Assembly (NCBI GenBank): GCA_009914755.4
Contig: CP086569.2
Span: forward strand, 21,152,001 to 21,216,000
DNA from: the human T2T-CHM13v2.0 reference genome, Homo sapiens
Reading direction: 5' to 3'
Length of the DNA: 64,000 nt
Within the stretch, counting starts at the first letter, position 1. Each line of letters begins with the position of its first letter. A model generated the notes under the pieces. The model was not told the origin of the DNA. It saw only the letters and a program-made list of their open reading frames with translations, and did not search any database. The translations under genes were made by a program, and so were the position numbers. Positions 41,951 through 64,000 of the stretch are shown here, piece after piece.

Positions 41951-42415
41951 CTGGCAGGTTCGTGGTCTTCCTCACTTCAAGAATGAAGCTGCAGACCTTA
42001 GTGTTGAGTGTTACAGCACGTAAAGGTGTTATGTCCAGAGTTTGTTCCTTCAGATGTGTCCAGAGTTTCTTCCTTCTGGCAGGTTCATGGTGTTGCTCAC
42101 TTCAAGAATGAAGCTGCAGACCTTACTGGTGAGTGTTACAGCACTTAAAGCTGTTATGTCCAGAGTTTGTTCCTTCAGATGTTTCCAGAGTTTCTTCCTT
42201 CTGGCAGGTTCGTGGTCTTGCTCACTTCTTTAATGAAGCTGCAGACCTTACTGGTGAGTGTTACAGCACTTAAAGGTGTTATGTCCAGAGTTTGTTCCTT
42301 CAGATGTGTCCTGAGTGTCTTCCTTCTGGCAGGTTCATGGTCTTGCTCACTTCACTAATGAAGCTGCAGACATTACTGGTGAGTGTTACAGCACTTAAAG
42401 GTGTTAAGTCCAGAG

Positions 42416-44575
42416 TTTGTTCCTTCAGATGTGTCCAGGGTTTCTGTTTTCTGGCAGGTTCATGGTCTCCCTCACTTCAAGAATGAAGCTGCCGACCTTA
42501 GTGGTGAGTGTTACAGCACTTGAAGGTGTTATGTCCAGAGTTCTTTCCTTCAGATGTGTCCAGCGTTTCTTCCTTCTGGCAGGTTCATGGTCTTCCTCAC
42601 TTCAAGAATGAAGCTGCAGACCTTACTGGTGAGTGTTACAGCAATTAAAGTTGTTATATCCAGAGTTTGTTCCTTCAGATGTTTCCAGAGTTTCTTCCTT
42701 CTGGCAGGTTCGTGGTCTTGCTCACTTCTTTAATGCAGCTGCAGACCTTACTGGTGAGTGTTACAGCACTTAAATGTGTTATGTCCAGAGTTTGTTTCTT
42801 CAGAGGTGTCCAGAGTTTCTTCCTTCTGGCAGTTTCGTGGTCTTCCTCACTTCAAGAATGAAGCTGCAGACCTTACTGGTGAGTGTTACAGCACTTAAAG
42901 GTGTTATGTCCAGACATTTTTCCGTCAGATGTGTCCAGGGTTTCTGTCTTCTGGCAGGTTCATGGTCTTGCTCACTTCAAGAATGAAGCTGCAGACTTTA
43001 GTGGTGAGTGTTACAGCACTTAAAGGTGTTATGTCCAGAGTTTTTTCCTTCAGATGTGTCCAGCGTTTCTTCCTTCTGGCAGTTTCATGGTCTTGCTCAC
43101 TTCAAGAATGAAGCTGCAGACCTTACTGTTGAGTGTTAAAGCACTTAAAGGTGTTATGTCCAGAGTTTGTTCCTTCAGATGTGTCCAGAGTTTCTTCCTT
43201 CTGGCAGGTTCATGGTGTTGCTCACTTCAACAATGAAGCTGCAGACCTTAGTGTTGAGTGTTACAGCACTTAAAAGTGTTATGTCCAGAGTTTGTTCCTT
43301 CAGATGTGTCCAGAGTTTTTTCCTTCTGGCAGGTTCGTGGTCTTGCTCACTTCCTTAATGAAGCTGCAGACCTTACTGGTGAGTGTTACAGCACTTAAAG
43401 GTGTTATGTCCAGAGTTTGTTTCTTCAGATATATCCAGTGTTTCTTCCTTCTGGCAGGTTCATGGTGTTGCTCACTTTAAGAATGAAGCTGCTGACCTTA
43501 ATGGTGAGTGTTACAGCACTTGAAGGTGTTATGTGCAGAGTTTTTTCCTTCAGATGTGTCCAGAGTTTCTTCCTTCTTGCAGGTTCGTGGTCTTGCTCAC
43601 TTCCTTAATGAAGCTGCAGACCTTAATGGTGACTGTTACAGCACTTAAAGGTGTTATGTCCAGAGTTTTTTTCCTTCAGATGTGTCCTGAGTGTCTTCCT
43701 TCTGGCAGGTTCATGGTCTTGCTCACTTCACTAATGAAGCTGCAGACCTTACTGGTGAGTTTTACAGCACTTAAAGGTGTTATGTCCAGAGTTTGTTCCT
43801 CCAGATGTGTCCAGGGTTTCTGTCTTCTGGCAGGTACATGGTCTTGCTCACTTCAAGAATGAAGCTGCCGAACTTAGTGGTGATTGTTACAGTACTTAAA
43901 GGTGTTATGTCCAGAGTTTTTTCCTTCAGATGTGTCCAGCGTTTCTTCCTTCTGGCAGGTTCATAGTCTTGCTCACTTGAAGAATGAAGCTGCAGACCAT
44001 ACTCTTTAGTGTTAAAGCACTTCAAGGTGTTATGTCCAGAGTTTGTTCCTTCAGATGTGTCCAGAGTTTCTTCCTTCTGGCATGTTCATGGTGTTGCTCA
44101 CTTCAAGAATGAAGCTGCAGACCTTAGTGTTGAGTGTTACAGCACTTATAGGTGTTATGTCCAGTGTTTGTTCCTTCAGATGTGTCCAGAGTTTCTTCCT
44201 TCTTGCAGGTTCGTGGTCTTGCTCACTTCCTTAATGAAGCTGCAGACCTTACTGGTGAGTGTTACAGCACTTAAAGGTGTTATGTCCAGAGTTTGTTCCT
44301 TCAGATGTGTCCAGTGTTTCTTCCTTCTGGCAGGTTCATGGTCTTGCTCACTTCAAGAATGAAGCTGCAGACTTTTGTGGTGAGTGTTACAGCATTTAAA
44401 GTTGTTATGTCCACAATTTGTTCCTTCAGATGTGTCCAGGGTTTCTTCCTTCTGGCAGGTTCATGGTCTTGCTCACTTCAAGAATGAAGTTGCAGACCTT
44501 ACTGGTGACTGTTACAGTACTTAAAGCTGTTATGTCCAGAGTTTGATCCTTCAGATATTTCCAGAGTTTCTTCCT
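42416..44575 (+). repeat. Duplicated ~2.16-kb block, copy 2 of 39790-41950
   Basis: See copy 1. Confidence 0.8.
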
Positions 44576-47500
44576 TCTGGCAGGTTCGTGTTCTTGCTCA
44601 CTTCTTTAATGAAGCTGCAGACCTTACTGGTGAGTATTACAGCACTTAAATGTGTTATGTCCAGAGATTGTTTCTCCAGATGTGTCCAGAGTTTCTTCCT
44701 TCTGGCAGTTTCGTGGTCTTCCTCACTTCAAGAATGAAGCTGCAGACCTTAGTGTTGAGTGTTACAGCACGTAAAGGTGTTATGTCCAGAGTTTGTTCCT
44801 TCAGATGTGTCCAGAGTTACTTCCTTCTGGCAGGTTCATGGTGTTGCTCACTTCAAGAATCAAGCTGCAGACCTTACTGTTGAGTGTTACAGCACTTAAA
44901 GCTGTTATGTCCAGAGTTTGTTCCTTCAGATGTTTCCAGAGTTTCTTCCTTCTGGCAGGTTCGTGGTCTTGCTCACTTCTTTAATGAAGCTACAGACCTT
45001 ACTGGTGAGTGTTACATCACTTAAAGGTGTTATGTCCAGAGTTTGTTCCTTCAGATGTGTCCAGAGTGTCTTCCTTCTGGCAGGTTCATGGTCTTGCTCA
45101 CTTCACTAATGAAGCTGCAGTCCTTACTGGTGAGTGTTACAGCACTTAAAGGTGTTATGTCCAGAGTTTGTTCCTTCAGATGTGTCCAGGGTTTCTGTCT
45201 TCTGGCAGGTTCATGGTCTTCCTCACTTCAAGAATGAAGCTGCCGACCTTAGTGGTGAGTGTTACAGCACTTGAAGGTGTTATGTCCAGAATTCTTTCCT
45301 TCAGATGTGTCCAGCGTTTCTTCCTTCTGGCAGGTTCATGGTCTTCCTCACTTCAAGAATGAAGCTGCAGACCTTACTGTTGAGTGTTACAGCAATTAAA
45401 GTTGTTATATCCAGAGTTTGTTCCTTCAGATGTTTCCAGAGTTTCTTCCTTCTGGCAGGTTCGTGGTCTTGCTCACATCTTTAATGAAGCTGCAGACCTT
45501 ACTGGTGAGTCTTACAGCACTTAAAGGTGTTATGTCCAGATTTTGTTTCTTCAGATGTGTCCAGAGTTTCTTCCTTCTGGCAGTTTCGTGGTCTTCCTCA
45601 CTTCAAGAATGAAGCTGCAGACCTTACTGGTGAGTGTTACTGCACTTTAAGGTGTTATGTCCAGAGTTTGTTCCTTCAGTTGTGTCCAGAGTGTCTTCCT
45701 TCTGGCAGGTTCATGGTCTTGCTCACTTCAAGAATGAAGCTGCAGACCTTACTGGTGAGTGTTACAGCACTTAAAGGTGTTATGTCCAGAGTTTGTTACT
45801 TCACATGTGTCCAGGGTTTCTGTCTTATGGCAGGTACATGGTCTTGCTCACTTCAAGAATGAAGCTGCAGAGCTTACTAGTGAGTGTTACAGCACTTGAA
45901 GGTGTTATGTGCAGAGTTTTTTCCTTCAGATGTGTCCAGAGTTTCTTCCTTCTTGCAGGTTCGTGGTCTTGCTCACTTCCTTAATGAAGCTGCAGACCTT
46001 ACTGGTGAGTGTTACAGCACTTAAAGGTTTTAGGTCCAGAGTTTGTTCCTTCAGATGTGTCCAGTGTTTCTTCCTTCTGGCAGGTTCATGGTCTTGCTCA
46101 CTTCAAGAATGAAGCTGCAGACTTTTGTGGTGAGTGTTACAGCAGTTAAAGTTGTTATGTCCAGAATTTGTTCCTTAAGATGTGTCCAGTGTTTCTTCCT
46201 TCTGGCAGGTTCATGGTCTCGCTCACTTCAAGAATGAAGCTGCAGGCCTTACTGGTGAGTGTTACAGCACTTAAAGGTGTTATGTCCAGAGTTTGTTCCT
46301 TCACATTTGTCCAGGGTTTCTGTCGTATTGCAGGTACATGGTCTTGCTCACTTCAAGAATGAAGCTGCCGAACTTAGGGGTGAGTGTTACAGTACTTAAA
46401 GGTGTTATGTCCAGAGTTTTTTCTTTCAGATGCGTCCAGCGTTTCTTCCTTCTGGCAGGTACATGGTCTTGCTCACTTCAAGAATGAAGCTGCAGACATT
46501 ACTGTTTAGTGTTAAAGCACTTAAAGGTGTTATGTCCAGAGTTTGTTCCTTCAGATGTGTCCAGAGTTTCTTCCTTCTGGCATGTTCATGGTGTTGCTCA
46601 CTTCAAGAATGAAGCTGCAGACCTTAGTGTTGAGTGTTACAGCACTTAAAGGTGTTATGTCCAGGGTTTGTTCCTACAGATGTGTCCAGAGTTTCTTCCT
46701 TCTTGCAGGTTCGTGGTCTTGCTCACTTCCTTAATGAAGCTGCAGACCTTACTGGTGAATGTTACAGCACTTAAATGTGTTATGTCCAGAGTTTGTTCCT
46801 TCAGATGTGTCCAGTGTTTCTTCCTTCTGGCAGGTTCATGGTCTTGCTCACTTCAAGAATGAAGCTGCAGACTTTTGTGGTGAGTGTTACAGCAGTTAAA
46901 GTTGTTATGTCCACAATTTGTTCCTTCAGATGTGTCCAGTGTTTCTTCCCTCTGGCAGGTTCATGGTCTTGCTCACTTCAAGAATGAAGCTGCAGACCTT
47001 ACTGGTGAGTGTTACAGTACTTAAAGCTGTTATGTCCAGAGTTTGATCCTTCAGATGTTTCCAGAGTTTCTTCCTTCTGGCAGGTTCGTGGTATTGCTCA
47101 CTTCTTTAATGAAGCTGCAGACCTTACTGGTGAGTGTTACAGCACTTAAAGGTGTTATGTCCAGAGATTGTTTCTTCAGATGTGTCCAGAGTTTCTTCCT
47201 TCTGGCAGTTTCGTGGTCTTCCTCACTTCAAGAATGAAGCCGCAGACCTTAGTGTTGAGTGTTACAGCACGTAAAGGTGTTATGTCCAGAGTTTGTTCCT
47301 TCAGATGTGTCCAGAGTGTCTTCCTTCTGGCAGGTTCATGGTCTTGCTCACTTCAAGAATGAAGCTGCAGACCTTACTGGTGAGTGTTACAGCACTTAAA
47401 GCTGTTATGTCCAGAGTTTGTTTCTTCAGATGTGTCCAGAATTTCTTCCTTCCGGCAGTTTCGTGGTCTTCCTCACTTCAAGAATGAAGCTGCAGACCTT

Positions 47501-49200
47501 AGTGTTGAGTGTTACAGCACTTAAATGTGTTATGTCCAGAGTTTTTTCCTTCAGATATGTCCAGCGTTTCTTCCTTCTGGCAGGTTCATGGTGTTGCTCA
47601 CTTCAAGAGTGAAGCTGCAGACCTTACTGTTGAGTTTTAAAGCACTTAAAGCTGTTATGTCCAGAGTTTGTTCCTTCAGATGTGTCCAGAGTTTCTTCCT
47701 TCTGGCAGGTTCATGTTCTTGCTCACTTCACTAATGAAGCTGCAGACCTTACTGGTGAGGGTGGCAGCACTTAAAGGTGTTATGACCAGAGTTTGTTCCT
47801 TCAGGTGTGTCCAGGGTTTCTGTCTTCTGGCAGGTTCATCGTCTTGCTCACTTCAAGAATGAAGCTGCCGACCTTTGTGGTGAGTGTTACAGCATTTGGA
47901 GTTGTTATGTCCAGAGTTTTTTCCTTCAGATGTGTCCAGCGTTTCTTCCTACTGGCAGGTTCATGGTCTTGCTCACTTCAAGAATGAAGCTGCAGACCTT
48001 ACTATTGAGTGTTAAAGCACTTAAAGGTGTTATATCCAGAGTTTGATCCTTCAGATGTGTCCAGAGTTTCTTCCTTCTGGCAGGTTCATGGTGTTGCTCA
48101 ATTCAAGAATGAAGCTGCAGACCTTAGTGTTGAGTGTTACAGCACTTAAAGGTGTTATGTCCAGAGTTTGTTCCTTCAGATGTGTCCAGAGTTTCTTCCT
48201 TCTTGGAGGTTCGTGGTCTTGTTCACTTCCTTAATGAAGCTGCAGACCTTACCGGTGAGTGTTACAGCACATAAAGGTGTTATGTCCAGAGTTTGTTCCT
48301 TCAGATGTGTCCAGGGTTTCTGTCTTCTGGCAGGATCATGGTCTTGCTCATTGAAGAATGAAGCTGCCGACCTTAGTGGTGAGTGTTACAGCATTTAAAG
48401 GTGTTATGTCCAGACTTTGTTCCTTCAGATATGTCCAGAGTTTCTTCCTTCTGGCAGGTTCATTGTCTTGCTCATTTCAAGAATGAAACTGCAGACTTTA
48501 GTGGTGAGTGTTACAGCACTTAAAGTTGTTATGTCCAGAGTTTGTTCCTTCAGATGTGTCCAGAGTGTCTTCCTTCTGGCAGCTTCATGGTCTTGCTCAC
48601 TTCACTAATGAAGCTGCAGACCTTACTGGTGAGTGTTACAGCACTTAAAGATGTTATGTCCAGAGTTTGTTCCTTCAGATGTGTCCAGGGTTTCTGTCTT
48701 CTGGCAGGTTCATGTTATGGCTCACTTCAAGAATGAAGCTGCAGACCTTAGTGGTGAGAGTTACAGCACTTAAAGGTGTTATGTCCAGAGTTTTTTCCTA
48801 CAGATGTGTCCAGCGTTTCTTCCTTCTGGCAGGTTCATAGTCTTGCTCACTTCAAGAATGAAGCTGCAGACCTTACTGTTGAGTGTTAAGGCACTTAAAG
48901 GTGTTATGTCCAGAGTTTGTTCCTTCAGACGTGTCCAGAGTTTCTTCCTTCTGGCAGGTTCGTGGTGTTGCTCACTTCCAGAATGAAGCTGCAGACCTTA
49001 GTGTTGAGTGTTACAACACTTAAAGGTGTTATGTCCAGAGTTTTTTCCTTCAGATATATCCAGCGCTTCTTCCTTCTGGCAGGTTCATGGTCTTGCACAC
49101 TTCAAGAATGAAGCTGCAGACCTTACTGTTGAGTTTTAAAGCACTTAAATTTGTTATGTCCAGAGTTTGTTCCTTCAGATGTGTCCAGAGGTTCTTCCTT
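43530..49200 (+). repeat. Long (~5.7-kb, about 46-monomer) intra-array segmental duplication, copy 1
   Basis: Collinear ORF and peptide matches: 43533<->56293, 44543<->57294, 44650<->57419, 44793<->57544, 45168<->57919, 45418<->58169, 45527<->58260, 46543<->59419, 46668<->59544, 47043<->59919, 47418<->60419, 47525<->60526, 47793<->61044, 48168<->61401, 48417<->61669, 48542<->61794, 48804<->62056, 48917<->62169. The offset grows from 12,751 through 12,876 to 13,252, i.e. whole-monomer indels between the copies. Confidence 0.7.
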
Positions 49201-52200
49201 CTGGCAGGTTCATGGTGTTGCTCACTTCAAGAATGAAGCTGCAGACCTTAGTGGTGAGTGTTACAGCACTTAAAGGTGTTATGTCCTGAGTTTGTTCCTT
49301 CAGATGTGTCAAGAGTTTCTTCCTTCTTGCAGGTTCGTGGTCTTGCTCACTTCCTTAATGAAGCTGCAGACCTTACTGGTGAATGTTACAGCACTTAAAG
49401 GTGTTATGTCCAGAGTTTGTTCCTCCAGATGTGTCCAGGGTTTCTGTCTTCTGGCAGTTTCATGGTGTTGCTCACTTCAAGAATGAAGCTGCAGTCCTTA
49501 GTGTTGAGTGTTACAGCACTTAAAGGTGTTATGTCCAGAGTTTGTTCCTTCAGATGATTCCAGAGTTTCTTCCTTCTTGCAGGTTCGTGGTCTTGCTCAC
49601 TTCCTTAATGAAGCTGCAGACCTTACTGGTGAGTGTTACAGCACTTAAAGGTTTTAGGTCCAGAGTTTGTTCCTTCAGATGTGTCCAGTGTTTCTTCCTT
49701 CTGGCAGGTTCATGGTCTTGCTCACTTCAAGAATGAAGCTGCAGACTTTGTGGTGAGTGTTACAGCAGTTAAAGTTGTTATGTCCAGAATTTGTTCCTTC
49801 AGATGTGTCCAGTGTTTCTTCCTTCTGGCAGGTTCATGGTCTTGCTCACTTCAAGAATGAAGCTGCAGGCCTTGCTGCTGAGTGTTACAGCACTTAAAGC
49901 TCATATGTCCAGAGTTTGTTCCTTCAGATGTTTCCAGAGTTTCTTCCTTCTGGCACGTTCGTGGTCTTGCTCACTTCTTTAATGAAGCTGCAGACCTTAC
50001 TTGTGAGTGTTACAGCACTTAAATGTGTTATGTCCAGAGTTTGTTTCTTCAGATGTGTCCAGAGTTTCTTCTTTCTGGCAGTTTCGTGGTCTTCCTCACT
50101 TCAAGAATGAAGCTGCAGACCTTACTGGTGAGTGTTACAGCACTTAAAGTTGTTATGTCCAGAGTTTGTTCCTTCAGATGTGTCCAGGGTTTCTATCTTC
50201 TGGCAGGTTCATGGTGTTGCTCACTTCAAGAATGAATCTGCCGACCTTAGTGGTGAGTTTTACAGCACTTAAAGGTGTTATGTCCAGAGTTTTTTCCTTC
50301 AGATATGTCCAGCGTTTCTTCCTTCTGGCAGGTTCATGGTCTTGCTCATTTCAAGAATGAAGCTGCAGACTTTTACGGTGAGTGTTACAGCACTTAAAGG
50401 TGTTTTGTCCAGAGTTTGTTGCTTCAGATGTGTCCAGAGTTTCTTTCTTCTGGCAGGTTCATGGTGTTGCTCACTTCAAGAATGAAGCTGCAGACCTTAC
50501 TGGTGAGTGTTACAGCACTTAAAGCTGTTATGTCCAGAGTTTGTTCCTTCATATGTTTCCAGAGTTTCTTCCTTCTGGCAGGTTCGTGGTCTTGCTCACT
50601 TCTTTAATGAAGCTGCAGACCTTACTGGTGAGTGTTACAGCACTTAAAGTTGTTATGTCCAGAGTTTGTTTCTTCAGATGTGTCCAGAGATTCTTCCTTC
50701 TGGCAGTTTCCTGGTCTTCCTCACTTCAAGAATGAAGCTGCAGACTTTACTGGTGAGTGTTACAGCACTTAAAGTTGTTATGTCCAGAGTTTGTTCCTTC
50801 AGATGTGTCCAGAGTGTCTTCCTTCTGGCATGTTCATGGTCTTGCTCACTTCACTAATGAAGCTGCAGACCTTACTGGTGAGGGTTACAGTACTTAAAGG
50901 TGTTATGTACAGAGTTTGTTCCTTCAGATGTGTCCAGGGTTTCTGTCTTCTGGCAGGTTCATGGTCTTGCTCAATTCAAGAATGAAGCTGCCGATATTAG
51001 TGGTGAGTGTTACAGCACTTAAAGGTGTTATGTCCAGTGTTTGTTCTTTCAGATGTGTCCAGAGTTTCTTCCTTCTTGCAGGTTCGTGGTCTGGCTCACT
51101 TCCTTAATGAAGCTGCAGACCTTAATGGTGAGTGTTACAGCACTTAAAGGTGTTATGTCCAGAGTTTTTTTCCTTCAGATGTGTCCTGAGTGTCTTCATT
51201 CTGGCAGGTTCATGGTCTTGCTCACTTCACTAATGAAGCTGCAGACCTTACTGGTGAGTGTTACAGCACTTAAAGGTGTTATGTCCAGAGTTTGTTCCTT
51301 CAGATGTGTCCAGGGTTTCTGTCTTCTGGCAGGTACATGGTCTTCCTCACTTCAAGAATGAAGCTGCCGAACTTATTGGTGAGTGTTACAGTACTTAAAG
51401 GTGTTATGTCCAGAGTTTTTTCCTTCAGATGTGTCCAGCGTTTCTTCCTTTTGGCAGGTTCATGGTCTTGCTCACTTCAAGAATGAAGCTGCAGACCATA
51501 CTCTTTAGTGTTAAAGCACTTCAAGGTGTTATGTCCAGAGTTTGTTCCTTCAGATGTGTCCAGAGTTTCTTCCTTCTGGCATGTTCATGTTGTTGCTCAC
51601 TTCAAGAATGAAGCTGCAGACCTTAGTGTTGAGTGTTACAGCACTTAAAGGTGTTATGTCCAGTGTTTGTTCCTTCAGATGTGTCCAGAGTTTCTTCCTT
51701 CTTGCATGTTCGTGGTCTTGCTCACTTCCTTAATGAAGCTGCAGACCTTACTGGTGAGTGTTACAGCACTTAAAGGTGTTATGTCCAGAGTTTGTTCCTT
51801 CAGATGTGTCCAGAGTTACATCCTTCTGGCAGGTTCATGGTGTTGCTCACTTCAAGAATCAAGCTGCAGACCTTACTGGTGAGTGTTACAGCACTTAAAG
51901 CTGTTATGTCCAGAGTTTGTTCCTTCAGATGTTTCCAGAGTTTCTTCCTTCTGGCAGTTTCGTGGTCTTGCTCACTTCTTTAATGAAGCTGCAGACCTTA
52001 CTGGTGAGTGTTACAGCACTTAAAGGTGTTATGTCCAGAGTTTGTTCCTTCAGATGTGTCCAGAGTGTCTTCCTTCTGGCAGGTTCGTGGTCTTGCTCAC
52101 TTCACTAATGAAGCTGCAGACCTTACTGGTGAGTATTACAGCACTTAAAGGTGTTATGTCCAGAGTTTGTTCCTTCAGATGTGTCCAGGGTTTCTGTCTT

Positions 52201-52689
52201 CTGGCAGGTTCATGGTCTTCCTCACTTCAAGAATGAAGCTGCCGACCTTAGTGTTGAGTGTTACAGCACTTGAAGGTGTTATGTCCAGAGTTCTTTCCTT
52301 CAGATGTGTCCAGCGTTTCTTCCTTCTGGCAGGTTCATGGTCTTCCTCACTTCAAGAATGAAGCTGCAGACCTTACTGGTGAGTGTTACAGCAATTAAAG
52401 TTGTTATATCCAGAGTTTGTTCCTTCAGATGTTTCCAGAGTTTCTTCCTTCTGGCAGGTTCGTCTTCTTGCTCACTTCTTTAATGAAGCTGCAGACCTTA
52501 CTGGTGAGTGTTACAGCACTTAAAGGTGTTAGGTCCAGAGTTTGTTTCTTCAGATGTGTCCAGAGTTTCTTCCTTCTGGCAGTTTCGTGGTCTTCCTCAC
52601 TTCAAGAATGAAGCTGCAGACCTTACTGGTGAGTGTTACAGCACTTTAAGGTGTTATGTCCAGAGTTTGTTCCTTCAGATGTGTCCAGA

Positions 52690-55600
52690 GTGTCTTCCTT
52701 CTGGCAGGTTCATGGTCTTGCTCACTTCACTAATGAAGCTGCAGACCTTACTGGTGATTGTTACAGCACTTAAAGGTGTTATGTCCAGAGTTTGTTCCTT
52801 CAGATGTGTCCAGGGTTTCTGTCTTCTGGCAGGTTCATGGACTTCCTCACTTCAAGAATGAAGCTGCCGACCTTAGTGGTGAGTGTTACAGCACTTGAAG
52901 TTGTTATGTCCAGAGTTCTTTCCTTCAGATGTGTCCAGCGTTTCTTCCTTCTGGCAGGTTCATGGTCTTCCTCACTTCAAGAATGAAGCTGCAGACCTTA
53001 CTGGTGAGTGTTACAGCAATTAAAGTTGTTATATCCAGAGTTTGTTCCTTCAGATGTTTCCAGAGTTTCTTCCTTCTGGCAGGTTCGTGGTGTTGCTCAC
53101 TTCTTTAATGAAGCTGCAGACCTTACTGGTGAGTGTTACAGCACTTAAAGGTGTTATGTCCAGAGTTTGTTTCTTCAGATGTGTCCAGAGTTTCTTCCTT
53201 CTGGCAGTTTCGTGGTCTTCCTCACTTCAAGAATGAAGCTGCAGACCTTACTGGTGAGTGTTACAGCACTTTAAGGTGTTATGTCCAGAGTTTCTTCCTT
53301 CAGATGTGTCCAGAGTGTCTTCCTTCTGGCAGGTTCATGGTCTTACTCACTTCAAGAATGAAGCTGCAGACCTTACTGGTGAGTGTTACAGCACTTAAAG
53401 GTGTTATGTCCAGAGATTTTTCCTTCAGATGTGTCCAGGGTTTCTGTCTTCTGGCAGGTTCATGGTCTTGCTCACTTCCAGAATGAAGCTGCAGACTTTA
53501 GTGGTGAGTGTTACAGCACTTAAAGTTGTTATGTCCAGAGTTTTTTCCTTCAGATGTGTCCAGCGTTTCTTCCTTCTGGCAGGTTCATGGTCTTGCTCAC
53601 TTCAAGAATGAAGCTGCAGACCTTACTGTTGAGTGTTAAAGCACTTAAAGGTGTTATATCCAGATTTTGTTCCTTCAGATGTGTACAGAGTTTCTTCCTT
53701 CTGGCAGGTTCATGGTGTTGCTCACTTCAACAATGAAGCTGCAGACCTTACTGTTGAGTGTTACAGCACTTAAAAGTGTTATGTCCAGAGTTTTTTCCTT
53801 CAGATGTGTCCAGAGTTTCTTCCTTCTGGCAGGTTCGTGGTCTTGCTCACTTCCTTAATGAAGCTGCAGACCTTACTGGTGAGTGTTACAGCACTTAAAG
53901 GTGTTATGTCCAGAGTTTGTTCCTTCAGATGTGTCCAGTGTTTCTTCCTTCTGGCAGGTTCATGGTGTTGCTCACTTCAAGAATGAAGCTGCAGACCTTA
54001 CTGGTGAGTGTTACAGCACTTGAATGTGTTATGTGCAGAGTTTTTTCCTTCAGATGTGTCCAGAGTTTCTTCCTTCTTGCAGGTTCGTGGTCTTGCTCAC
54101 TTCCTTAATGAAGCTGTAGACCTTAATGGTGAGTGTTACAGCACTTCAAGGTGTTATGTCCAGAGTTTTTTCCTTCAGATGTGTCCTGAGTGTCTTCCTT
54201 CTGGCAGGTTCATGGTCTTGCTCACTTCACTAACGAAGCTGCAGACCTTACTGGTGAGTGTTACAGCACTTAAAGGTGTTATGTCCACAGTTTGTTCCTT
54301 CAGATGTGTCCAGGGTTTCTGTCTTCTGGCAGGTACATGGTCTTGCTCACTTCAAGAATGAAGCTGCCGAACTTAGTGGTGAGTGTTACAGCACTTAAAG
54401 GTGTTATGTCCAGTGTTTGTTCCTTCAGATGTGTCCAGAGTTTCTTCCTTCTTGCAGGTTCGTGGTCTGGCTCACTTCCTTAATGAAGCTGCAGACCTTA
54501 ATGGTGAGTGTTACAGCACTTAAAGGTGTTATGTCCAGAGTTTTTTTCCTTCAGATGTGTCCTGAGTGTCTTCCTTCTGGCAGGTTCATGGTCTTGCTCA
54601 CTTCACTAATGAAGCTGCAGACCTTACTGGTGAGTGTTACAGCACTTAAAGGTGTTATGTCCAGAGTTTGTTCCTTCAGATGTGTCCAGGGTTTCTGTCT
54701 TCTGGCAGGTTCATGGACTTCCTCACTTCAAGAATGAAGCTGCCGACCTTAGTGGTGAGTGTTACAGCACTTGAAGTTGTTATGTCCAGAGTTCTTTCCT
54801 TCAGATGTGTCCAGCGTTTCTTCCTTCTGGCAGGTTCATGGTCTTCCTCACTTCAAGAATGAAGCTGCAGACCTTACTGGTGAGTGTTACAGCAATTAAA
54901 GTTGTTATATCCAGAGTTTGTTCCTTCAGATGTTTCCAGAGTTTCTTCCTTCTGGCAGGTTCGTGGTGTTGCTCACTTCTTTAATGAAGCTGCAGACCTT
55001 ACTGGTGAGTGTTACAGCACTTAAAGGTGTTATGTCCAGAGTTTGTTTCTTCAGATGTGTCCAGAGTTTCTTCCTTCTGGCAGTTTCGTGGTCTTCCTCA
55101 CTTCAAGAATGAAGCTGCAGACCTTACTGGTGAGTGTTACAGCACTTTAAGGTGTTATGTCCAGAGTTTCTTCCTTCAGATGTGTCCAGAGTGTCTTCCT
55201 TCTGGCAGGTTCATGGTCTTACTCACTTCAAGAATGAAGCTGCAGACCTTACTGGTGAGTGTTACAGCACTTAAAGGTGTTATGTCCAGAGATTTTTCCT
55301 TCAGATGTGTCCAGGGTTTCTGTCTTCTGGCAGGTTCATGGTCTTGCTCACTTCCAGAATGAAGCTGCAGACTTTAGTGGTGAGTGTTACAGCACTTAAA
55401 GTTGTTATGTCCAGAGTTTTTTCCTTCAGATGTGTCCAGCGTTTCTTCCTTCTGGCAGGTTCATGGTCTTGCTCACTTCAAGAATGAAGCTGCAGACCTT
55501 ACTGTTGAGTGTTAAAGCACTTAAAGGTGTTATATCCAGATTTTGTTCCTTCAGATGTGTACAGAGTTTCTTCCTTCTGGCAGGTTCATGGTGTTGCTCA

Positions 55601-56576
55601 CTTCAACAATGAAGCTGCAGACCTTACTGTTGAGTGTTACAGCACTTAAAAGTGTTATGTCCAGAGTTTGTTCCTTCAGATGTGTCCAGAGTTTCTTCCT
55701 TCTGGCAGGTTCGTGGTCTTGCTCACTTCCTTAATGAAGCTGCAGACCTTACTGGTGAGTGTTACAGCACTTAAAGGTGTTATGTCCAGAGTTTGTTCCT
55801 TCAGATGTGTCCAGTGTTTCTTCCTTCTGGCAGGTTCATGGTGTTGCTCACTTCAAGAATGAAGCTGCAGACCTTACTGGTGAGTGTTACAGCACTTGAA
55901 TGTGTTATGTGCAGAGTTTTTTCCTTCAGATGTGTCCAGAGTTTCTTCCTTCTTGCAGGTTCGTGGTCTTGCTCACTTCCTTAATGAAGCTGTAGACCTT
56001 AATGGTGAGTGTTACAGCACTTCAAGGTGTTATGTCCAGAGTTTTTTCCTTCAGATGTGTCCTGAGTGTCTTCCTTCTGGCAGGTTCATGGTCTTGCTCA
56101 CTTCACTAACGAAGCTGCAGACCTTACTGGTGAGTGTTACAGCACTTAAAGGTGTTATGTCCACAGTTTGTTCCTTCAGATGTGTCCAGGGTTTCTGTCT
56201 TCTGGCAGGCACATGGTCTTGCTCACTTCAAGAATGAAGCTGCCGAACTTAGTGGTGAGTGTTACAGCACTTAAAGGTGTTATGTCCAGTGTTTGTTCCT
56301 TCAGATGTGTCCAGAGTTTCTTCCTTCTTGCAGGTTCGTGGTCTGGCTCACTTCCTTAATGAAGCTGCAGACCTTAATGGTGAGTGTTACAGCACTTAAA
56401 GGTGTTATGTCCAGAGTTTTTTTCCTTCAGATGTGTCCTGAGTGTCTTCCTTCTGGCAGGTTCATGGTCTTGCTCACTTCACTAATGAAGCTGCAGACCT
56501 TACTGGTGAGTGTTACAGCACTTAAAGGTGTTATGTCCAGAGTTTGTTCCTTCAGATGTGTCCAGGGTTTCTGTCT
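52690..56576 (+). repeat. About 2.07 tandem copies of a 1876-bp (15-monomer) higher-order unit at about 99.8% identity (the youngest-looking duplication in the window)
   Basis: ORFs 52792, 53042, 53133 (117 aa), 53429, 53554, 53917, 54008 (117 aa) are amino-acid-identical to ORFs 54668, 54918, 55009, 55305, 55430, 55793, 55884. The ORFs at 53667 and 53804 differ from 55543 and 55668 by single substitutions. Identity continues from 54566-54700 into 56442-56576. Confidence 0.85.
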
Positions 56577-59500
56577 TCTGGCAGGTACATGGTCTTGCTC
56601 ACTTCAAGAATGAAGCTGCCGAACTTAGTGGTGAGTGTTACAGTACTTAAAGGTGTTATGTCCAGAGTTTTTTCCTTCAGATGTGTCCAGCGTTTCTTCC
56701 TTCTGGCAGGTTCATGGTCTTGCTCACTTCAAGAATGAAGCTGCAGACCATACTCTTTAGTGTTAAAGCACTTCAAGGTGTTATGTCCAGAGTTTGTTCC
56801 TTCAGATGTGTCCAGAGTTTCTTCCTTCTGGCATGTTCATGGTGTTGCTCACTTCAAGAATGAAGCTGCAGACCTTAGTGTTCAGTGTTACAGCACTTAA
56901 ACGTGTTATGTCCAGTGTTTGTTCCTTCAGATGTGTCCAGAGTTTCTTCCTTCTTGCAGGTTCGTGGTCTTGCTCACTTCCTTAATGAAGCTGCAGACCT
57001 TACTGGTGAGTGTTACAGCACTTAAAGGTGTTATGTCCAGAGTTTCTTCCTTCAGATGTGTCCAGTGTTTCTTCCTTCTGGCAGGTTCATGGTCTTGCTC
57101 ACTTCAAGAATGAAGCTGCAGACTTTTGTGGTGGGTGTTACAGCATTTAAAGTTGTTATGTCCACAATTTGTTCCTTCAGATGTGTCTAGTGTTTCTTCC
57201 TTCTGGGAGTTTCATGGTCTTGCTCACTTCAAGAATGAAGTTGCAGACTTTACTGGTGAGTGTTACAGTACTTAAAGCTGTTATGTCCAGAGTTTGATCC
57301 TTCAGATGTTTCCAGAGTTTCTTCCTTCTGGCAGGTTCCTGGTCTTGCTCACTTCTTTAATGAAGCTGCAGACCTTACTGGTGAGTATTACAGCACTTAA
57401 AGGTGTTATGTCCAGAGATTGTTTCTCCAGATGTGTCCAGAGTTTCTTCCTTCTGGCAGTTTCGTGGTCTTCCTCACTTCAAGAATGAAGCTGCAGACCT
57501 TAGTGTTGAGTGTTACAGCACGTAAAGGTGTTATGTCCAGAGTTTGTTCCTTCAGATGTGTCCAGAGTTACTTCCTTCTGGCAGGTTCATGGTGTTGCTC
57601 ACTTCAAGAATCAAGCTGCAGACCTTACTGGTGAGTGTTACAGCACTTAAAGCTGTTATGTCCAGAGTTTGTTCCTTCAGATGTTTCCAGAGTTTCTTCC
57701 TTCTGGCAGGTACGTGGTCTTGCTCACTTCTTTAATGAAGCTGCAGACCTTACTGGTGAGTGTTTCAGCACTTAAAGGTGTTATGTCCAGAGTTTGTTCC
57801 TTCAGATGTGTCCAGAGTGTCTTCCTTCTGGCAGGTTCATGGTCTTGCTCACTTCACTAATGAAGCTGCAGACCTTACAGGTGAGTGTTACAGCACTTAA
57901 AGGTGTTATGTCCAGAGTTTGTTCCTTCAGATGTGTCCAGGGTTTCTGTCTTCTGGCAGGTTCATGGACTTCCTCACTTCAAGAATGAAGCTGCCGACCT
58001 TAGTGGTGAGTGTTACAACACTTGAAGTTGTTATGTCCAGAGTTCTTTCCTTCAGATGTGTCCAGCGTTTCTTCCTTCTAGCAGGTTCATGGTCTTCCTC
58101 ACTTCAAGAATGAAGCTGCAGACCTTACTGGTGAGTGTTACCGCAATTAAAGTTGTTATATCCAGAGTTTGTTCCTTCAGATGTTTCCAGAGTTTCTTCC
58201 TTCTGTCATGTTCGTGGTGTTGCTCACTTCTTTAATGAAGCTGCAGACCTTACTGGTGAGTGTTACAGCACTTAAAGGTGTTATGTCCAGAGTTTGTTTC
58301 TTCAGATGTGTCCAGAGTTTCTTCCTTCTGGCAGTTTCGTGGTCTTCCTCACTTCAAGAATGAAGCTGCAGACCTTACTGGTGAGTGTTACAGCACTTTA
58401 AGGTGTTATGTCCAGAGTTTGTTCCTTCAGATGTGTCCAGAGTGTCTTCCTTCTGGCAGGTTCATGGTCTTGCTCACTTCAAGAATGAAGCTGCACACCT
58501 TACTGGTGAGTGTTACAGCACTTAAAGGTGTTATGTCCAGAGATTTTTCCTTCAGATGTGTCCAGGGTTTCTGTCTTCTGGCAGGTTCATGGTCTTGCTC
58601 ACTTCAAGAATGAAGCTGCAGACTTTAGTGGTGAGTGTTACAGCACTTAAAGGTGTTATGTCCAGAGTTTGTTCCTTCAGATGTGTCCAGAGTTGCTTCC
58701 TTCTGGCAGGTTCGTGGTCTTGCTCACTTCCTTAATGAAGCTGCAGACCTTACTGGTGAGTGTTACAGCACTTAAAGGTGTTATGTCCAGAGTTTGTTCC
58801 TTCAGATGTGTCCAGTGTTTCTTCCTTCTGGCAGGTTCATGGTGTTGCTCACTTGAAGAATGAAGCTGCAGACCTTCCTGGTGAGTGTTACAGTACTTGA
58901 TGGTGTTATGTGCAGAGTTTTTTCCTTCAGATGTTTCCAGAGTTTCTTCCTTCTTGCAGGTTCGTGGTCTTGCTCACTTCCTTAATGAAGCTGCAGACCT
59001 TAATGGTGAGTGTTACAGCACTTAAAGATGTTATGTCCAGAGTTTGTTCCTTCAGATGTGTCCTGAGTGTCTTCCTTCTGGCAGGTTCATGGTCTTGCTC
59101 ACTTCACTAATTAAGCTGCAGACCTTACTGGTGAGTGTTACAGCACTTAAAGGTGTTATGTCCAGAGTTTGTTCCTTCACCTGTGTCCAGGGTTTCTGTC
59201 TTATGGCACGTACATGGTCTTGCTCACTTCAAGAATGAAGCTGCCGAACTTAGTGGTGAGTGTTACAGTACTTAAAGGTGTTATGTCTAGAGTTTTTTCC
59301 TTCAGATGCGTCCAGCGTTTCTTCCTTCTGGCATGTTCATGGTCTTGCTCACTTCAAGAATGAAGTTGCAGACCTTACTGTTTAGTGTTAAAGCACTTAA
59401 AGGTGTTATGTCCAGAGTTTGTTCCTTCAGATGTGTCCAGAGTTTCTTCCTTCTGGCATGTTCATGGTGTTGCTCACTTCAAGAATGAAGCTGCAGACCT

Positions 59501-62450
59501 TAGTGTTGAGTGTTACAGCACTTAAAGGTGTTATGTCCAGTGTTTGTTCCTTCAGATGTGTCCAGAGTTTCTTCCTTCTTGCAGGTTCGTGGTCTTGCTC
59601 ACTTCCTTAATGAAGCTGCAGACCGTACTGGTGAATGTTACAGCACTTAAAGGTGTTATGTCCAGAGTTTGTTCCTTCAGATGTGTCCAGTGTTTCTTCC
59701 TTCTGGCAGGTTCATGGTCTTGCTCACTTCAAGAATGAAGCTGCAGACTTTTGTGGTGAGTGTTACAGCAGTTAAAGTTGTTATGTCCACAATTTGTTCC
59801 TTCAGATGTGTCCAGTGTTTCTTCCTTCTGGCAGGTTCATGGTCTTGCTCACTTCAAGAATGAAGCTGCAGACCTTACTGGTGAGTGTTGCAGTACTTAA
59901 AGCTGTTATGTCCAGAGTTTGATCCTTCAGATGTTTCCAGAGTTTCTTCCTTCTGGCAGGTTCGTGGTCTTGCTCACTTCTTTAATGAAGCTGCAGACCA
60001 TACTGGTGAGTGTTACAGCACTTAAAGGTGTTATGTCCAGAGATTGTTTCTTCAGATGTGTCCAGAGTTTCTTCCTTCTGGCAGTTTCGTGGTCTTCCTC
60101 ACTTCAAGAATGAAGCTGCAGACCTTAGTGTTGAGTGTTACAGCACGTAAAGGTGTTATGTCCAGAGTTTGTTCCTTCAGATGTGTCCAGAGTGTCTTCC
60201 TTCTGGCAGGTTCATGGTCTTGCTCACTTCACTAATGAAGCTGCAGACCTTACTGGGGAGTGTTACAGCACTTTAAGGTGTTTTGTGCAGAGTTTCTTCC
60301 TTCAGATGTGTCCAGTGTTTCTTCCTTCTGGCAGGTTCATGGTCTTGCTCACTTCAAGAATGAAGCTGCAGACTTTTGTGGTGAGTGTTACAGCAGTTAA
60401 CGTTGTTATGTCCACAATTTGTTCCTTCAGATGTGTCCAGTGTTTCTTCCTTCTGGCAGTTTCGTGGTCTTCCTCACTTCAAGAATGAAGCTGCAGACCT
60501 TAGTGTTGAGTGTTACAGCACTTAAATGTGTTATGTCCAGAGTTTTTTCCTTCAGATATGTCCAGCGTTTCTTCCTTCTGACAAGTTCATGGTGTTGCTC
60601 ACTTCAAGAGTGAAGCTGCAGACCTTACTGTTGAGTTTTAAAGCACTTAAAGCTGTTATGTCCAGAGTTTGTTCCTTCAGATGTGTCCAGAGTTTCTTCC
60701 TTCTGGCAGGTTCGTGGTCTTGCTCACTTCTTTAATGAAGCTGCAGTCCTTACTGGTGAGTGTTACAGCACTTAAAGGTGTTATGTCCAGAGTTTGTTTC
60801 TTCAGATGTGTCCAGAGTTTCTTCCTTCTGGCAGTTTCGTGGTCTTCCTCACTTCAAGAACGAAGCTGCAGACCTTACTGGTGAGTGTTACAGCACTTAA
60901 AGTTGTTATGTCCAGAGATTGTTCCTTCAGATGTGTCCAGAGTGTCTTCCTTCTGGCAGGTTCATGGTCTTGCTCACTTCACTAATGAAGCTGCAGACCT
61001 TACTGGTGAGGGTGGCAGCACTTAAAGGTGTTATGACCAGAGGTTGTTCCTTCAGATGTGTCCAGGGTTTCTGTCTTCTGGCAGGTTCATGGTCTTGCTC
61101 ACTTCAAGAATGAAGCTGCCGACCTTTGTGGTGAGTGTTACAGCACTTGGAGTTGTTATGTCCAGAGTTTTTTCCTTCAGATGTGTCCAGCGTTTCTTCC
61201 TACTGGCAGGTTCATGGTCTTGCTCACTTCAAGAATGAAGCTGCAGACCTTACTATTCAGTGTTAAAGCACTTAAAGGTGTTATATCCAGAGTTAGATCC
61301 TTCAGATGTGTCCAGAGTTTCTTCCTTCTCGCAGGTTCATGGTGTTGCTCAATTCAAGAATGAAGCTGCAGACTTTAGTGTTGAGTGTTACAGCACTTAA
61401 ATGTGTTATGTCCAGAGTTTGTTCCTTCAGATGTGTCCAGAATTTCTTCCTTCTTGGAGGTTCGTGGTCTTGCTCACTTCCTTAATGAAGCTGCAGACCT
61501 TACCGGTGAGTGTTACAGCACTTAAAGGTGTTATGTCCAGAGTTTGTTCCTTCAGATGTGTCCAGGGTTTCTGTCTTCTGGCAGGATCATGGTCTTGCTC
61601 ACTTGAAGAATGAAGCTGCCGACCTTAGTGGTGAGTGTTACAGCATTTAAAGGTGTTATGTCCAGACTTTGTTCCCTCAGATATGTCCAGAGTTTCTTCC
61701 TTCTGGCAGGTTCATTGTCTTGCTCATTTCAAGAATGAAACTGCAGACCTTAGTGGTGAGTGTTACAGCACTTAAAGGTGTTATGTCCAGAGTATGTTCC
61801 TTCAGATGTGTCCAGAGTGTCTTCCTTCTGGCAGCTTCATGGTCTTGCTCACTTCACTAATGAAGCTGCAGACCTTACTGGTGAGTGTTACAGCACTTAA
61901 AGATGTTATGTCCAGAGTTTGTTCATTCAGATATGTCCAGGGTTTCTGTCTTCTGGCAGGTTCATGTTATGACTCACTTCAAGAATGAAGCTGCAGACCT
62001 TAGTGGTGAGAGTTACAGCACTTAAAGGTGTTATGCCCAGAGTTTTTTCCTTCAGATGTGTCCAGCGTTTCTTCCTTCTGGCAGATTCATAGTCTTGCTC
62101 ACTTCAAGAATGAAGCTGCAGACCTTACTGTTGAGTGTTAAGGCACTTAAAAGTGTTATGTCCAGAGTTTGTTCCTTCAGACGTGTCCAGAGTTTCTTCC
62201 TTCTGGCAGGTTCGTGGTGTTGCTCACTTCCAGAATGAAGCTGCAGACCTTAGTGTTGAGTGTTACAACACTTAAAGGTGTTATGTCCAGAGTTTTTTCC
62301 TTCAGATATGTCCAGCGCTTCTTCCTTCTGGCAGGTTCATGGTCTTGCACACTTCAAGAATGAAGCTGCAGACCTTACTGTTGAGTTTTAAAGCACTTAA
62401 AGTTGTTATGTCCAGAGTCTGTTCCTTCAGATGTGTCCAGAGTTTCTTCC
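56290..62450 (+). repeat. Long intra-array segmental duplication, copy 2 of 43530-49200 (contains about 4 extra monomers)
   Basis: See copy 1. Rare shared variants include 'gaccatactctttagtgttaaagcacttcaaggtg' (43981 / 56741) and 'gtgagtattacagcacttaaa...ccagagattgtttctccagatg' (44631 / 57381). Confidence 0.7.
60540..61370 (+). repeat. Duplicated ~0.83-kb block, copy 1 (its partner is exactly 2500 bp = 20 monomers downstream); related to 47.4-48.1 kb
   Basis: 60541-60660 matches 63041-63160 by eye, including 'ctgacaagttcatggtg/ctgacaggttcatggtg' and 'caagagtgaagctgcagaccttactgttgagttttaaagcacttaaagctg'. ORFs 60669, 60794, 60919, 61044, 61058 match ORFs 63169, 63294, 63419, 63544, 63558. Confidence 0.8.
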
Positions 62451-63870: not shown

Positions 63871-64000
63871 GACCTTACTGGTGAGTGTTACAGCACTCAA
63901 AGCTGTTATGTCCAGAGTTTGTACCTTCAGATGTTTCCAGAGTTTCTTCCTTCTGGCAGGTTCGTGGTCTTGCTCACTTCTTTAATGAAGCTGCAGACCT

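What the first reader, a model, noticed from the sequence alone, without database searches (positions are those of the whole stretch)
43530..62450. Long-range (~12.8-13.3 kb apart) duplication of a ~5.7-kb, about 46-monomer segment with whole-monomer indels
43.53-49.2 kb and 56.29-62.45 kb are collinear over about 46 monomers. The offset steps from 12,751-12,760 through 12,876 to 13,252, so one copy has gained or lost about 1 and about 3 further monomers since the duplication. Between them lies the 52.7-56.6 kb young tandem unit. So the 3' half of the window is built from a large unit of about 13 kb (100+ monomers) that was subsequently remodelled, i.e. nested HOR layers.
Basis: seen in the sequence. 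Interest (0 to 1): 0.55.

Follow-up and report, generated by a model that had tools for sequence, protein, structure and literature searches.

The report
Old block duplication inside satellite array
A roughly 7-kb block of a 125-bp satellite array was copied about 12.5 kb downstream long ago and later reshaped by whole-monomer gains or losses and local re-duplications, which is ordinary satellite-array turnover and not a proven 13-kb repeat unit.

Summary
The whole 64-kb window is one 125-bp satellite array of 511 monomers with 90.1% mean pairwise identity. The best long-range collinear path in the window joins 42,242-49,116 (copy A) to 54,492-62,368 (copy B). It covers 55 monomer pairs and 6,875 aligned bases at 97.6% identity. 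The offset steps through 12,251, 12,376, 12,751, 12,876, 13,001 and 13,251/2, and every whole-monomer difference is extra sequence in B. The path score is 147, against at most 16 for monomer shuffles and at most 69 for 10-monomer-block shuffles.

There are two partial copies, not a repeating 13-kb unit. Collinearity stops sharply at 49,116/62,368, there is no third copy upstream, and 55 of about 102 monomers are shared. The layering is real: monomers at about 90%, a ~21-23-monomer unit at 96-97%, the large block at 97.6%, and young local tandem copies at 98.8-99.7%.

The monomer is homologous to the ERV-9 (LTR12) R-U5 repeat, so this is probably a SATR1-type primate satellite, although that name could not be tested. 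The mechanism, out-of-register recombination or template switching, is inferred.

One oddity remains unexplained: substitutions are transversion-rich (transition fraction 0.33).

The parts
1..64000 (+). Uninterrupted 125-bp satellite array, all monomers in one orientation (511 complete monomers; 491 of 125 bp, 13 of 124, 7 of 126). GC is 0.43-0.44, the consensus has no CpG, and CpG observed/expected is 0.109.
   Evidence: TRF (period 125, 512.1 copies, 89% matches); monomer cutting; composition; consensus and CpG; no Rfam family; one chance ORF of at least 120 aa.
42242..49116 (+). Copy A of the large block duplication (monomers 337-391).
   Evidence: Top Smith-Waterman path; band of the distance matrix; base-level alignment.
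54492..62368 (+). Copy B of the large block duplication (monomers 435-497). It is 1,002 bp longer than A.
43595..46122 (+). Longest gap-free block of A. It pairs with 56,346-58,873 at offset 12,751 and 97.51% identity.
   Evidence: k-mer span.
47743..49116 (+). Tail of copy A (monomers 381-391). Its only run of 5 or more similar monomers on any diagonal is with 60,994-62,368 (2.27 edits per monomer). It is not part of the ~21-monomer unit, so it anchors the long-range duplication.
   Evidence: Strict diagonal runs; structural map.
55097..55221 (+). One monomer present in B and absent from A (placement approximate within the repeat). The same monomer type (364-type, following the 341-type) is present in sub-units A3 and B2, so this difference is most simply a loss in A.
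   Evidence: Gap list; map (440, 466 and 425 all match 364).
55971..56345 (+). Three monomers present in B and absent from A, at the boundary of the young 15-monomer tandem unit.
58874..59002 (+). One monomer extra in B. The aligner splits it as 46+79 bp, so the placement is approximate.
60254..60378 (+). One monomer extra in B.
60695..60944 (+). Two monomers extra in B.
49117..54491 (+). Interval between the copies that has no counterpart after copy B. It holds about 15 monomers with only scattered matches (49,117-50,990), a partial copy of the ~21-monomer unit (50,991-52,616), and the first unit of the young 15-monomer tandem.
52617..56743 (+). Young tandem duplication: 15-monomer (1,876-bp) unit, 2.2 copies, 99.2% identity, with a longest exact match of 1,035 bp. 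It overlaps the 5' end of copy B.
39866..44492 (+). Tandem pair A1/A2 of the ~21-monomer (2,626-bp) unit, 1.44 edits per monomer (98.8%). It is younger than the A/B duplication, which is why A1 also aligns to B at offsets near 15,377.
60494..63743 (+). Young 20-monomer-offset duplicate: 60,494-61,243 pairs with 62,994-63,743 at 1.67 edits per monomer. It re-copies part of the end of B just beyond B's 3' edge.
   Evidence: 318-bp exact match at offset 2,500.

Best explanation
This is one old duplication inside a satellite array. A block of at least 55 monomers (about 6.9 kb) already held two diverged copies of a ~21-23-monomer unit plus a tail found nowhere else. That block was copied once to a position about 12.3-12.8 kb downstream in the same orientation. 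Both copies then diverged by about 2.4%. They came to differ by five whole-monomer indels totalling 8 monomers, at least one of which is a loss in the 5' copy. Both were partly overwritten at their edges by younger local tandem duplications with 15-, 20- and 21-monomer units. Shown here: the two copies, their boundaries, their identity, the indels, and the order of events. Inferred: the mechanism. It is most likely out-of-register homologous recombination (unequal sister-chromatid or homologue exchange) or replication template switching between monomers, which are the standard turnover processes of tandem arrays. The feature has no evident function. The array itself is a primate satellite whose monomer derives from the tandem repeat in the R-U5 part of the ERV-9 (LTR12) long terminal repeat.
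For: The path is the top-scoring one in the window and lies far beyond the shuffles. Identity is 97.61% over 6,875 columns. Divergence is homogeneous across the seven aligned blocks (chi-square 6.0, 6 df, p=0.42), as expected from a single event. Corresponding sub-units (2.5-2.7 edits) are closer than sub-units within a copy (3.6-4.3 edits). The tail 47,743-49,116 has its only run of similar monomers with 60,994-62,368. Younger events sit on top: 15-monomer tandems at 99.2-99.3%, the 21-monomer pair at 98.8%, and an 8-monomer pair at 99.7%. A shared 1-bp insertion (TTT>TTTT at consensus position 50) marks the same position of the ~21-monomer unit in monomers 327, 348, 408, 435 and 450. For the origin of the monomer, 7 of 14 published ERV-9 lncRNA ChIRP probes (PMC5416847) match the + strand consensus at 15-18 of 20 bases. 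Six of them were never reached in 1,000 probe shuffles and the seventh in 0.1%. They land at two cyclic positions, as expected for a repeated unit.
Against: A simple unequal exchange gives two adjacent copies as long as the offset (~100 monomers). Here only 55 monomers are shared and 43 monomers lie between the copies, so either later remodelling erased the rest or the copy was never tandem. The sequence 5' of both copies has been overwritten by young duplications, so the 5' breakpoint cannot be placed. Only one haplotype and one window are available. The transversion-rich differences (51 transitions, 113 transversions) are not what ordinary primate point mutation gives, so divergence may not be a clean clock.
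Confidence: 0.8

Rival explanations
1. It is a true very large higher-order repeat. A unit of about 100 monomers (12.8 kb) repeats in tandem, and the window happens to catch one full unit and part of the next. The unmatched parts were remodelled later.
For: The offset is stable at 98-106 monomers over 55 monomers. Of the 103 testable monomers from 310 onward, 73 have a partner within 5 edits at 98-106 monomers downstream. The window ends only 1.6 kb after copy B, and 0.75 kb of that is a young re-duplication, so the test of continuation is short.
Against: There is no third copy upstream (best-in-band 5.9 edits against 2.7 downstream). Collinearity ends abruptly in both copies. Only 55 of ~102 monomers are shared. 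Many of the 73 partners are same-phase matches of the ~21-monomer unit, not matches between corresponding positions. No diagonal is periodic across the array.
Confidence: 0.1
2. The collinearity is a by-product of both regions being built from the same ~21-monomer unit. It would be phase coincidence and not one long duplication.
For: Much of 39.9-47.4 kb and 51.0-60.2 kb consists of copies of one ~21-23-monomer unit. These align in several registers: diagonals 78-84, 98-106 and 119-124.
Against: The collinear register is clearly the best one, at 2.5-2.7 edits against 3.6-4.3 in the other registers. The 11-monomer tail lies outside the unit and pairs only between A and B. Shuffles that keep 10-monomer blocks reach at most 69 against the observed 147.
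Confidence: 0.03
3. It is an assembly artefact: a false duplication or two haplotypes stitched in series.
For: Satellite arrays are prone to misassembly. The macaque T2T preprint 10.1101/2025.08.04.668424 reports that most SATR architectures were unresolved in earlier assemblies.
Against: The copies differ at 164 sites and by five monomer-scale indels, far more than a false duplication would give. Younger duplications are nested on each copy independently. The 43 monomers between the copies are not duplicated.
Confidence: 0.04
4. The two copies are real, but the copy was made in a different way. A 7-kb tract was pasted into a non-adjacent position by long-tract gene conversion or break-induced, template-switching replication, and there never was a tandem 12.8-kb duplication.
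For: Both copies have sharp 3' edges with unrelated flanks. The shared length (55 monomers) is about half the offset. Substitutions between the copies are mildly clustered: 22 gaps of 3 bp or less against 11.3 expected, and a dispersion index of 1.77.
Against: A tandem duplication whose junction lies at 49,116/49,117 also predicts sharp 3' edges. Its expected 5' collinearity would have been erased by the young duplications seen at 36.5-44.5 kb and 52.6-56.7 kb. Substitutions are not enriched near the indel junctions.
Confidence: 0.3

Closest known systems
Intra-array segmental duplications and 'layered expansions' in primate satellite arrays, as seen in identity heat maps of complete centromeres (established knowledge from T2T centromere studies, not re-read here)
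   Same: Same-orientation blocks of many monomers are copied within one array. There is a gradient of identities from old to young layers, whole-monomer indels, and local tandem re-amplification.
   Different: The monomer here is 125 bp and ERV-9-LTR-derived, not 171-bp alpha satellite. There is no regular array-wide HOR. Nothing in the window indicates a centromere.
[quoted passage not shown]
   Same: A multi-monomer unit (~21-23 monomers here) has copies that are more alike (96-97%) than neighbouring monomers (~90%).
   Different: HOR arrays repeat head-to-tail many times at 95-100% identity. Here the ~21-monomer unit has about 8 ragged copies and the ~100-monomer 'unit' has two partial ones. 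Titles in the held library give 59 monomers as the largest primate alpha-satellite HOR (orangutan chromosome 13, PMC11276891) and describe a 52mer in human chromosome 21 (PMC12385485). A 100+ monomer HOR would therefore be exceptional, and that is a reason not to accept it on two partial copies.
SATR1 satellite of catarrhine primates. It is enriched in macaque p-arm subtelomeres (10.1101/2025.08.04.668424), is the most abundant satellite found in hoolock gibbon and co-localises with the centromeric LAVA repeat there (PMC3606032), and occurs in human acrocentric junction regions and 8p23.1 core duplicons (PMC8997349, PMC5088589).
   Same: GC of 0.44 equals the 44% reported for macaque SATR1. 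It is a primate satellite. In 8p23.1 SATR1 lies beside ERV1-class repeats. My recollection, which is not a test, is that the SATR1 consensus is this ERV-9-LTR-like repeat.
   Different: No SATR1 consensus sequence or monomer length was available in any tool or paper read, so the name is unverified. Macaque SATR1 arrays are mostly short and mixed with SATR1v or SATR2, whereas this is at least 64 kb of pure array.
Tandem repeat in the R-U5 region of the ERV-9 (LTR12) long terminal repeat
   Same: ERV-9 lncRNA probes 4, 5, 7, 8, 12 and 13 match the consensus at 15-18 of 20 bases on one strand. They fall at two cyclic positions, so the LTR carries about three copies of the homologous unit.
   Different: Here the unit is amplified to more than 500 copies without the rest of the LTR: probes 1-3 match no better than shuffled probes. 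CpGs are replaced by TpG/CpA in the consensus. From memory, the period is 125 bp against roughly 130-135 in the LTR.

Membership tests
Higher-order repeat with a ~100-monomer (12.8-kb) unit | The unit repeats head-to-tail in three or more copies, or at least two full adjacent copies. | tested here: not met
   There are two partial copies sharing 55 of ~102 monomers, with 43 unmatched monomers between them. There is no third copy upstream and no continuation after 62,368.
Higher-order repeat with a ~100-monomer (12.8-kb) unit | Identity between units is far above identity between neighbouring monomers. | tested here: met
   97.6% against an array mean of 90.1%.
Higher-order repeat with a ~100-monomer (12.8-kb) unit | Periodicity at the unit length across the array. 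| tested here: not met
   Mean edit distance on diagonal 102 over the whole window is 11.8 against an overall 12.3. The signal comes only from 42-49 kb.
Single intra-array block (segmental) duplication | Two collinear same-strand copies with homogeneous divergence. | tested here: met
   Seven blocks at 96.5-98.4% identity; heterogeneity chi-square p=0.42.
Single intra-array block (segmental) duplication | Sub-repeats inside the block are closer to their counterpart in the other copy than to each other. | tested here: met
   2.53 and 2.67 edits against 3.57-4.31 edits per monomer.
Single intra-array block (segmental) duplication | Defined breakpoints with unrelated flanks. | tested here: inconclusive
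   The 3' edges are sharp in both copies. The 5' edges are obscured by the young 15- and 21-monomer duplications.
ERV-9 / LTR12 R-U5-derived tandem repeat | Sequence homology of the monomer to the ERV-9 LTR R-U5. | tested here: met
   Seven of 14 published probes match at 15-18 of 20 bases on the + strand only. Six were reached by none of 1,000 shuffles and one by 0.1%. This test uses 20-mers, not a full LTR alignment.
SATR1 satellite (Repbase/Dfam) | Match to the SATR1 consensus sequence. | not testable with these tools
SATR1 satellite (Repbase/Dfam) | Base composition as reported for SATR1 (GC about 44% in macaque). | tested here: met
   The window has GC 0.43-0.44 against 44%. This is weak, non-specific support.
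Alpha satellite | Monomer of about 171 bp. | tested here: not met
   The period is 125 bp.

The most novel reading that the evidence does not exclude
The two copies are the first one-and-a-half units of a genuine super-HOR of about 100 monomers (12.8 kb) that continues beyond the 3' end of the window. It would be nested over a ~21-monomer HOR. That would be larger than the 59-monomer unit described as the largest primate alpha-satellite HOR (PMC11276891), and it would sit in a non-alpha, retroviral-LTR-derived satellite.
Probability: 0.08. Interest if true: 0.4.

Novelty: already known. Interest (0 to 1): 0.15.

Why it matters
It matters little beyond annotation. The finding shows the usual turnover of a tandem array: block duplication, monomer-scale indels and local re-amplification. 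It gives a relative chronology for this stretch. The ~21-monomer units amplified first (about 3-3.4% apart). The 7-kb block duplication came next (2.4%). Then came the A1/A2 pair (1.2%), the 15-monomer tandems (0.75%) and the 8-monomer pair (0.3%). It is useful as a caution: two partial copies at a fixed offset should not be called a 100-monomer HOR. Two side points may interest repeat specialists. A retroviral LTR sub-repeat has been amplified to at least 64 kb, and its substitution spectrum is transversion-rich.

Tried and rejected
(1) The repeat finder on 38-64 kb was swamped by 206-copy monomer families and could not show the long pairs. I used my own k-mer offsets and a monomer distance matrix instead.
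(2) The first probe comparison used wrong end-gap settings and was meaningless. It was redone as an ungapped sliding match.
(3) Two scripts failed on trivial errors, as did one paper reading.
(4) A mistyped pattern wasted one metagenome scan and one genome scan. The corrected pattern hits 148 monomers in the window. A shorter version found nothing in metagenome, prokaryotic-genome or viral collections, as expected for a primate satellite, so no related loci could be compared.
(5) A literature search for a SATR1 consensus, monomer length or primer gave locations and abundance only, with no sequence.
(6) I considered that the window might be simulated with uniform random substitutions, because the transition fraction is 1/3. 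A uniform spectrum is rejected (chi-square p=1e-26). All 22 indels are 1 bp and about two-thirds lie in short base runs. The retained ancestral CpG at consensus positions 95-96 differs in 10 of 83 close pairs, against a 1.8% per-site baseline. So simple simulation is not supported, but a non-natural origin cannot be excluded.
(7) The fixed-offset difference count for the 52.6-kb block is inflated by a 1-bp register shift and is not used.
(8) Coding or RNA content: no Rfam family and one chance 141-aa ORF.


Full report
WHAT THE WINDOW IS. The whole 64,000-bp window is one tandem array of a 125-bp monomer in a single orientation. TRF reports period 125, 512.1 copies, 89% matches and 0% indels. 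GC is flat at 0.43-0.44 and the + strand is T-rich. I cut the array into 511 complete monomers: 491 of 125 bp, 13 of 124 and 7 of 126. I then computed all pairwise edit distances. The mean is 12.4 edits, or 90.1% identity. There is no Rfam family and no meaningful ORF.

CHECK OF THE OBSERVATION.
- 12,751 over 43,002-46,092
- 12,876 over 46,247-47,355
- 13,001 over 47,319-47,712
- 13,251 over 47,717-48,350
- 13,252 over 48,351-49,538

A Smith-Waterman alignment on the monomer distance matrix, with whole-monomer gaps allowed, ranks this path first in the entire window. It joins monomers 337-391 (42,242-49,116) to monomers 435-497 (54,492-62,368). It has 55 pairs at 97.5% identity, on diagonals 98>99>102>103>104>106. 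The band of the matrix shows the path plainly, with cells of 0-5 edits against a background of 10-18.

The base-level global alignment gives 6,875 aligned columns, 97.61% identity and 164 substitutions. The whole-monomer gaps are all extra sequence in the 3' copy:
- +125 at 55,097
- +375 at 55,971
- +125 near 58,874-59,002
- +125 at 60,254
- +250 at 60,695

The path score of 147 compares with 12.4+/-1.5 (max 16) when monomer order is shuffled. It compares with 53.6+/-4.4 (max 69) when blocks of 10 monomers are kept intact.

The 'young tandem unit' is a 15-monomer (1,876-bp) unit in 2.2 copies at 52,617-56,743. It is 99.2% identical and contains a 1,035-bp exact match. It overlaps the 5' end of copy B.

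ANATOMY. I mapped every monomer from 290 to 510 onto the monomers of copy A. The map shows that 39.9-47.4 kb and 51.0-60.2 kb consist of about eight ragged copies of a ~21-23-monomer unit. These are A1 318-338, A2 339-360, A3 361-380, a partial copy at 407-419, the two young 15-monomer units 420-434 and 435-449, B1 450-470 and B2 471-480. A 1-bp insertion (TTT>TTTT at consensus position 50) marks the same unit position in monomers 327, 348, 408, 435 and 450.

The tail of copy A (monomers 381-391, 47,743-49,116) is not part of that unit. Its only run of similar monomers is with 60,994-62,368.

Corresponding sub-units of the two copies are closer than sub-units within a copy. A2-B1 differ by 2.53 and A3-B2 by 2.67 edits per monomer. 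A2-A3 differ by 3.57, B1-B2 by 3.80, A2-B2 by 4.31 and A3-B1 by 4.22. A block that already held diverged units was therefore copied as a whole.

Divergence is even along the block (chi-square p=0.42), as one event predicts. A1/A2 (1.44 edits, 98.8%) and the 15-monomer tandems (0.92-0.94 edits, 99.2-99.3%) are younger.

At least one indel can be polarised. The monomer extra in B at 55,097 is of the '364 type' that also follows the '341 type' in A3 and B2. Its absence from A2, and from A1 which is a copy of A2, is most simply a loss.

WHAT IT IS NOT. It is not shown to be a 13-kb HOR.
- After 49,116/62,368 the next 13 monomers on diagonal 106 average 10.8 edits against a null of 12.4+/-0.96. The best-in-band mean is 6.5 against a null of 6.3.
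- The monomers after both copies have only scattered best matches. Those at 504-508 are a young re-copy of 484-488.
- No third copy lies 95-111 monomers upstream, where best-in-band is 5.9 edits against 2.7 downstream.
- No diagonal is periodic over the whole array.

Only 55 of ~102 monomers are shared. The window ends 1.6 kb after copy B, so continuation further 3' stays untested.

It is not a phase coincidence of the ~21-monomer unit. The tail, the closer match between corresponding sub-units, and the block-shuffle control all argue against that.

It is not a likely assembly duplicate. The copies differ at 164 sites and by five monomer-scale indels, and each carries independent younger events.

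MECHANISM (INFERRED). The standard processes of tandem arrays suffice. These are out-of-register homologous exchange between sister chromatids or homologues, or replication template switching or long-tract conversion. Monomer-scale slippage or exchange and local tandem re-amplification would follow.

A tandem duplication with its junction at 49,116/49,117 explains the sharp 3' edges. Its expected 5' collinearity would since have been overwritten by the young duplications at 36.5-44.5 kb and 52.6-56.7 kb. A non-adjacent 7-kb copy explains the data equally well. One haplotype cannot separate the two.

IDENTITY OF THE SATELLITE. From memory, the monomer looked like the reverse complement of the tandem repeat near the 3' end of LTR12, the ERV-9 LTR. 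I tested this against published sequence. A full-text search for monomer 13-mers found PMC5416847. That paper lists 14 probes against the ERV-9 lncRNA, a transcript it describes by its R-U5 sub-regions. Seven probes match the + strand consensus at 15-18 of 20 bases. Six were never reached in 1,000 shuffles and one was reached in 0.1%. None match the - strand. Probes 4, 7 and 12 land at consensus positions 8-14 and probes 5, 8 and 13 at 106-111, as expected if the LTR carries about three copies of the unit. Probes 1-3 match no better than shuffled probes, so only the repeat unit was amplified.

The consensus has no CpG and the window has CpG observed/expected of 0.109. An ancestral 'TTCGTGG' survives in 129 monomers.

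I recall that this is the SATR1 satellite. SATR1 is reported in macaque subtelomeres with GC 44%. It is reported as the most abundant satellite in hoolock gibbon, co-localising with the centromeric LAVA repeat there. It also occurs in human acrocentric junctions and 8p23.1 duplicons. No paper read gives the SATR1 sequence, so the name is untested. The monomer pattern has no match in the metagenome, prokaryotic-genome or viral collections.

UNEXPLAINED. Substitutions are transversion-rich at every level. There are 51 transitions and 113 transversions between A and B. The transition fraction is 0.33 among 650 differences between nearest-neighbour monomers and 0.34 for rare derived alleles. The spectrum is not uniform (chi-square p=1e-26). 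G on the + strand mutates most per site, and T>A is the commonest class after collapsing complements. All 22 indels against the consensus are 1 bp, and about two-thirds lie in short base runs. Differences between A and B are mildly clustered but not enriched at the indel junctions. I cannot tell whether this reflects an unusual mutational or repair process in this heterochromatin, micro-conversion, or the provenance of the sequence.

VERDICT. It overreaches in calling this a ~13-kb unit that builds the 3' half. This is ordinary satellite-array turnover of a known kind, and interest is low.

Noticed in passing
window 1-64000: The substitution spectrum is transversion-rich. The transition fraction is 0.33 in 650 nearest-neighbour monomer differences and 0.34 for rare derived alleles, and A and B differ by 51 transitions and 113 transversions. 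It is not a uniform spectrum (p=1e-26): G on the + strand is the most mutable base per site, and T>A is the commonest class after collapsing complements. This is unexpected for primate DNA.
   Followed up: partly
window 1-64000 (consensus monomer): The monomer is homologous to the repeat in the R-U5 region of the ERV-9/LTR12 LTR. Seven of 14 published ERV-9 lncRNA probes match at 15-18 of 20 bases, all on the + strand, so the window's + strand is antisense to the LTR transcript. This is probably the SATR1 satellite, but the name is untested.
   Followed up: partly
window 8,029-8,268 / 40,400-40,639; 17,923-18,135 / 56,422-56,634; 30,750-30,982 / 42,998-43,230; 29,303-29,519 / 44,178-44,394: There are exact matches of 213-240 bp (about two monomers) between places 12-38 kb apart, in an array whose monomers average 90% identity. 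They may be remnants of an older dispersed unit or long-range conversion.
   Followed up: no
window 36,491-39,865; 19,245-21,242; 13,414-14,955: Other young local tandem duplications have different unit sizes: 15 monomers (99.3%), 8 monomers (99.7%) and 6 monomers (792-bp exact match, five monomer pairs at 100%). The array has no single HOR period and is a patchwork of local events.
   Followed up: partly
consensus positions 95-96 in 129 monomers across the window: A CpG ('TTCGTGG', the ERV-9-like state) is retained in about a quarter of monomers, and the rest have CA. Close monomer pairs differ at position 96 in 10 of 83 cases against a 1.8% per-site baseline, which suggests CpG hypermutability. 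Two other CpG-bearing positions (2 and 73) show no such excess.
   Followed up: partly
monomers starting at 40,991, 43,617, 51,116, 54,492 and 56,368: A shared 1-bp insertion (TTT>TTTT at consensus position 50) recurs at the same phase of the ~21-monomer unit. It is a convenient marker of that unit.
   Followed up: yes
window 26,904-26,952; 35,279-35,327; 45,654-45,702: TRF reports a weak internal 25-bp sub-repeat ('GTTATGTCCAGAGTTTCTTCCTTCA' x2) within some monomers. It reflects the two similar halves 'GTCCAGAGTTTGTTCCTTCAGAT' and 'GTCCAGAGTTTCTTCCTTCTGG' of the monomer.
   Followed up: no
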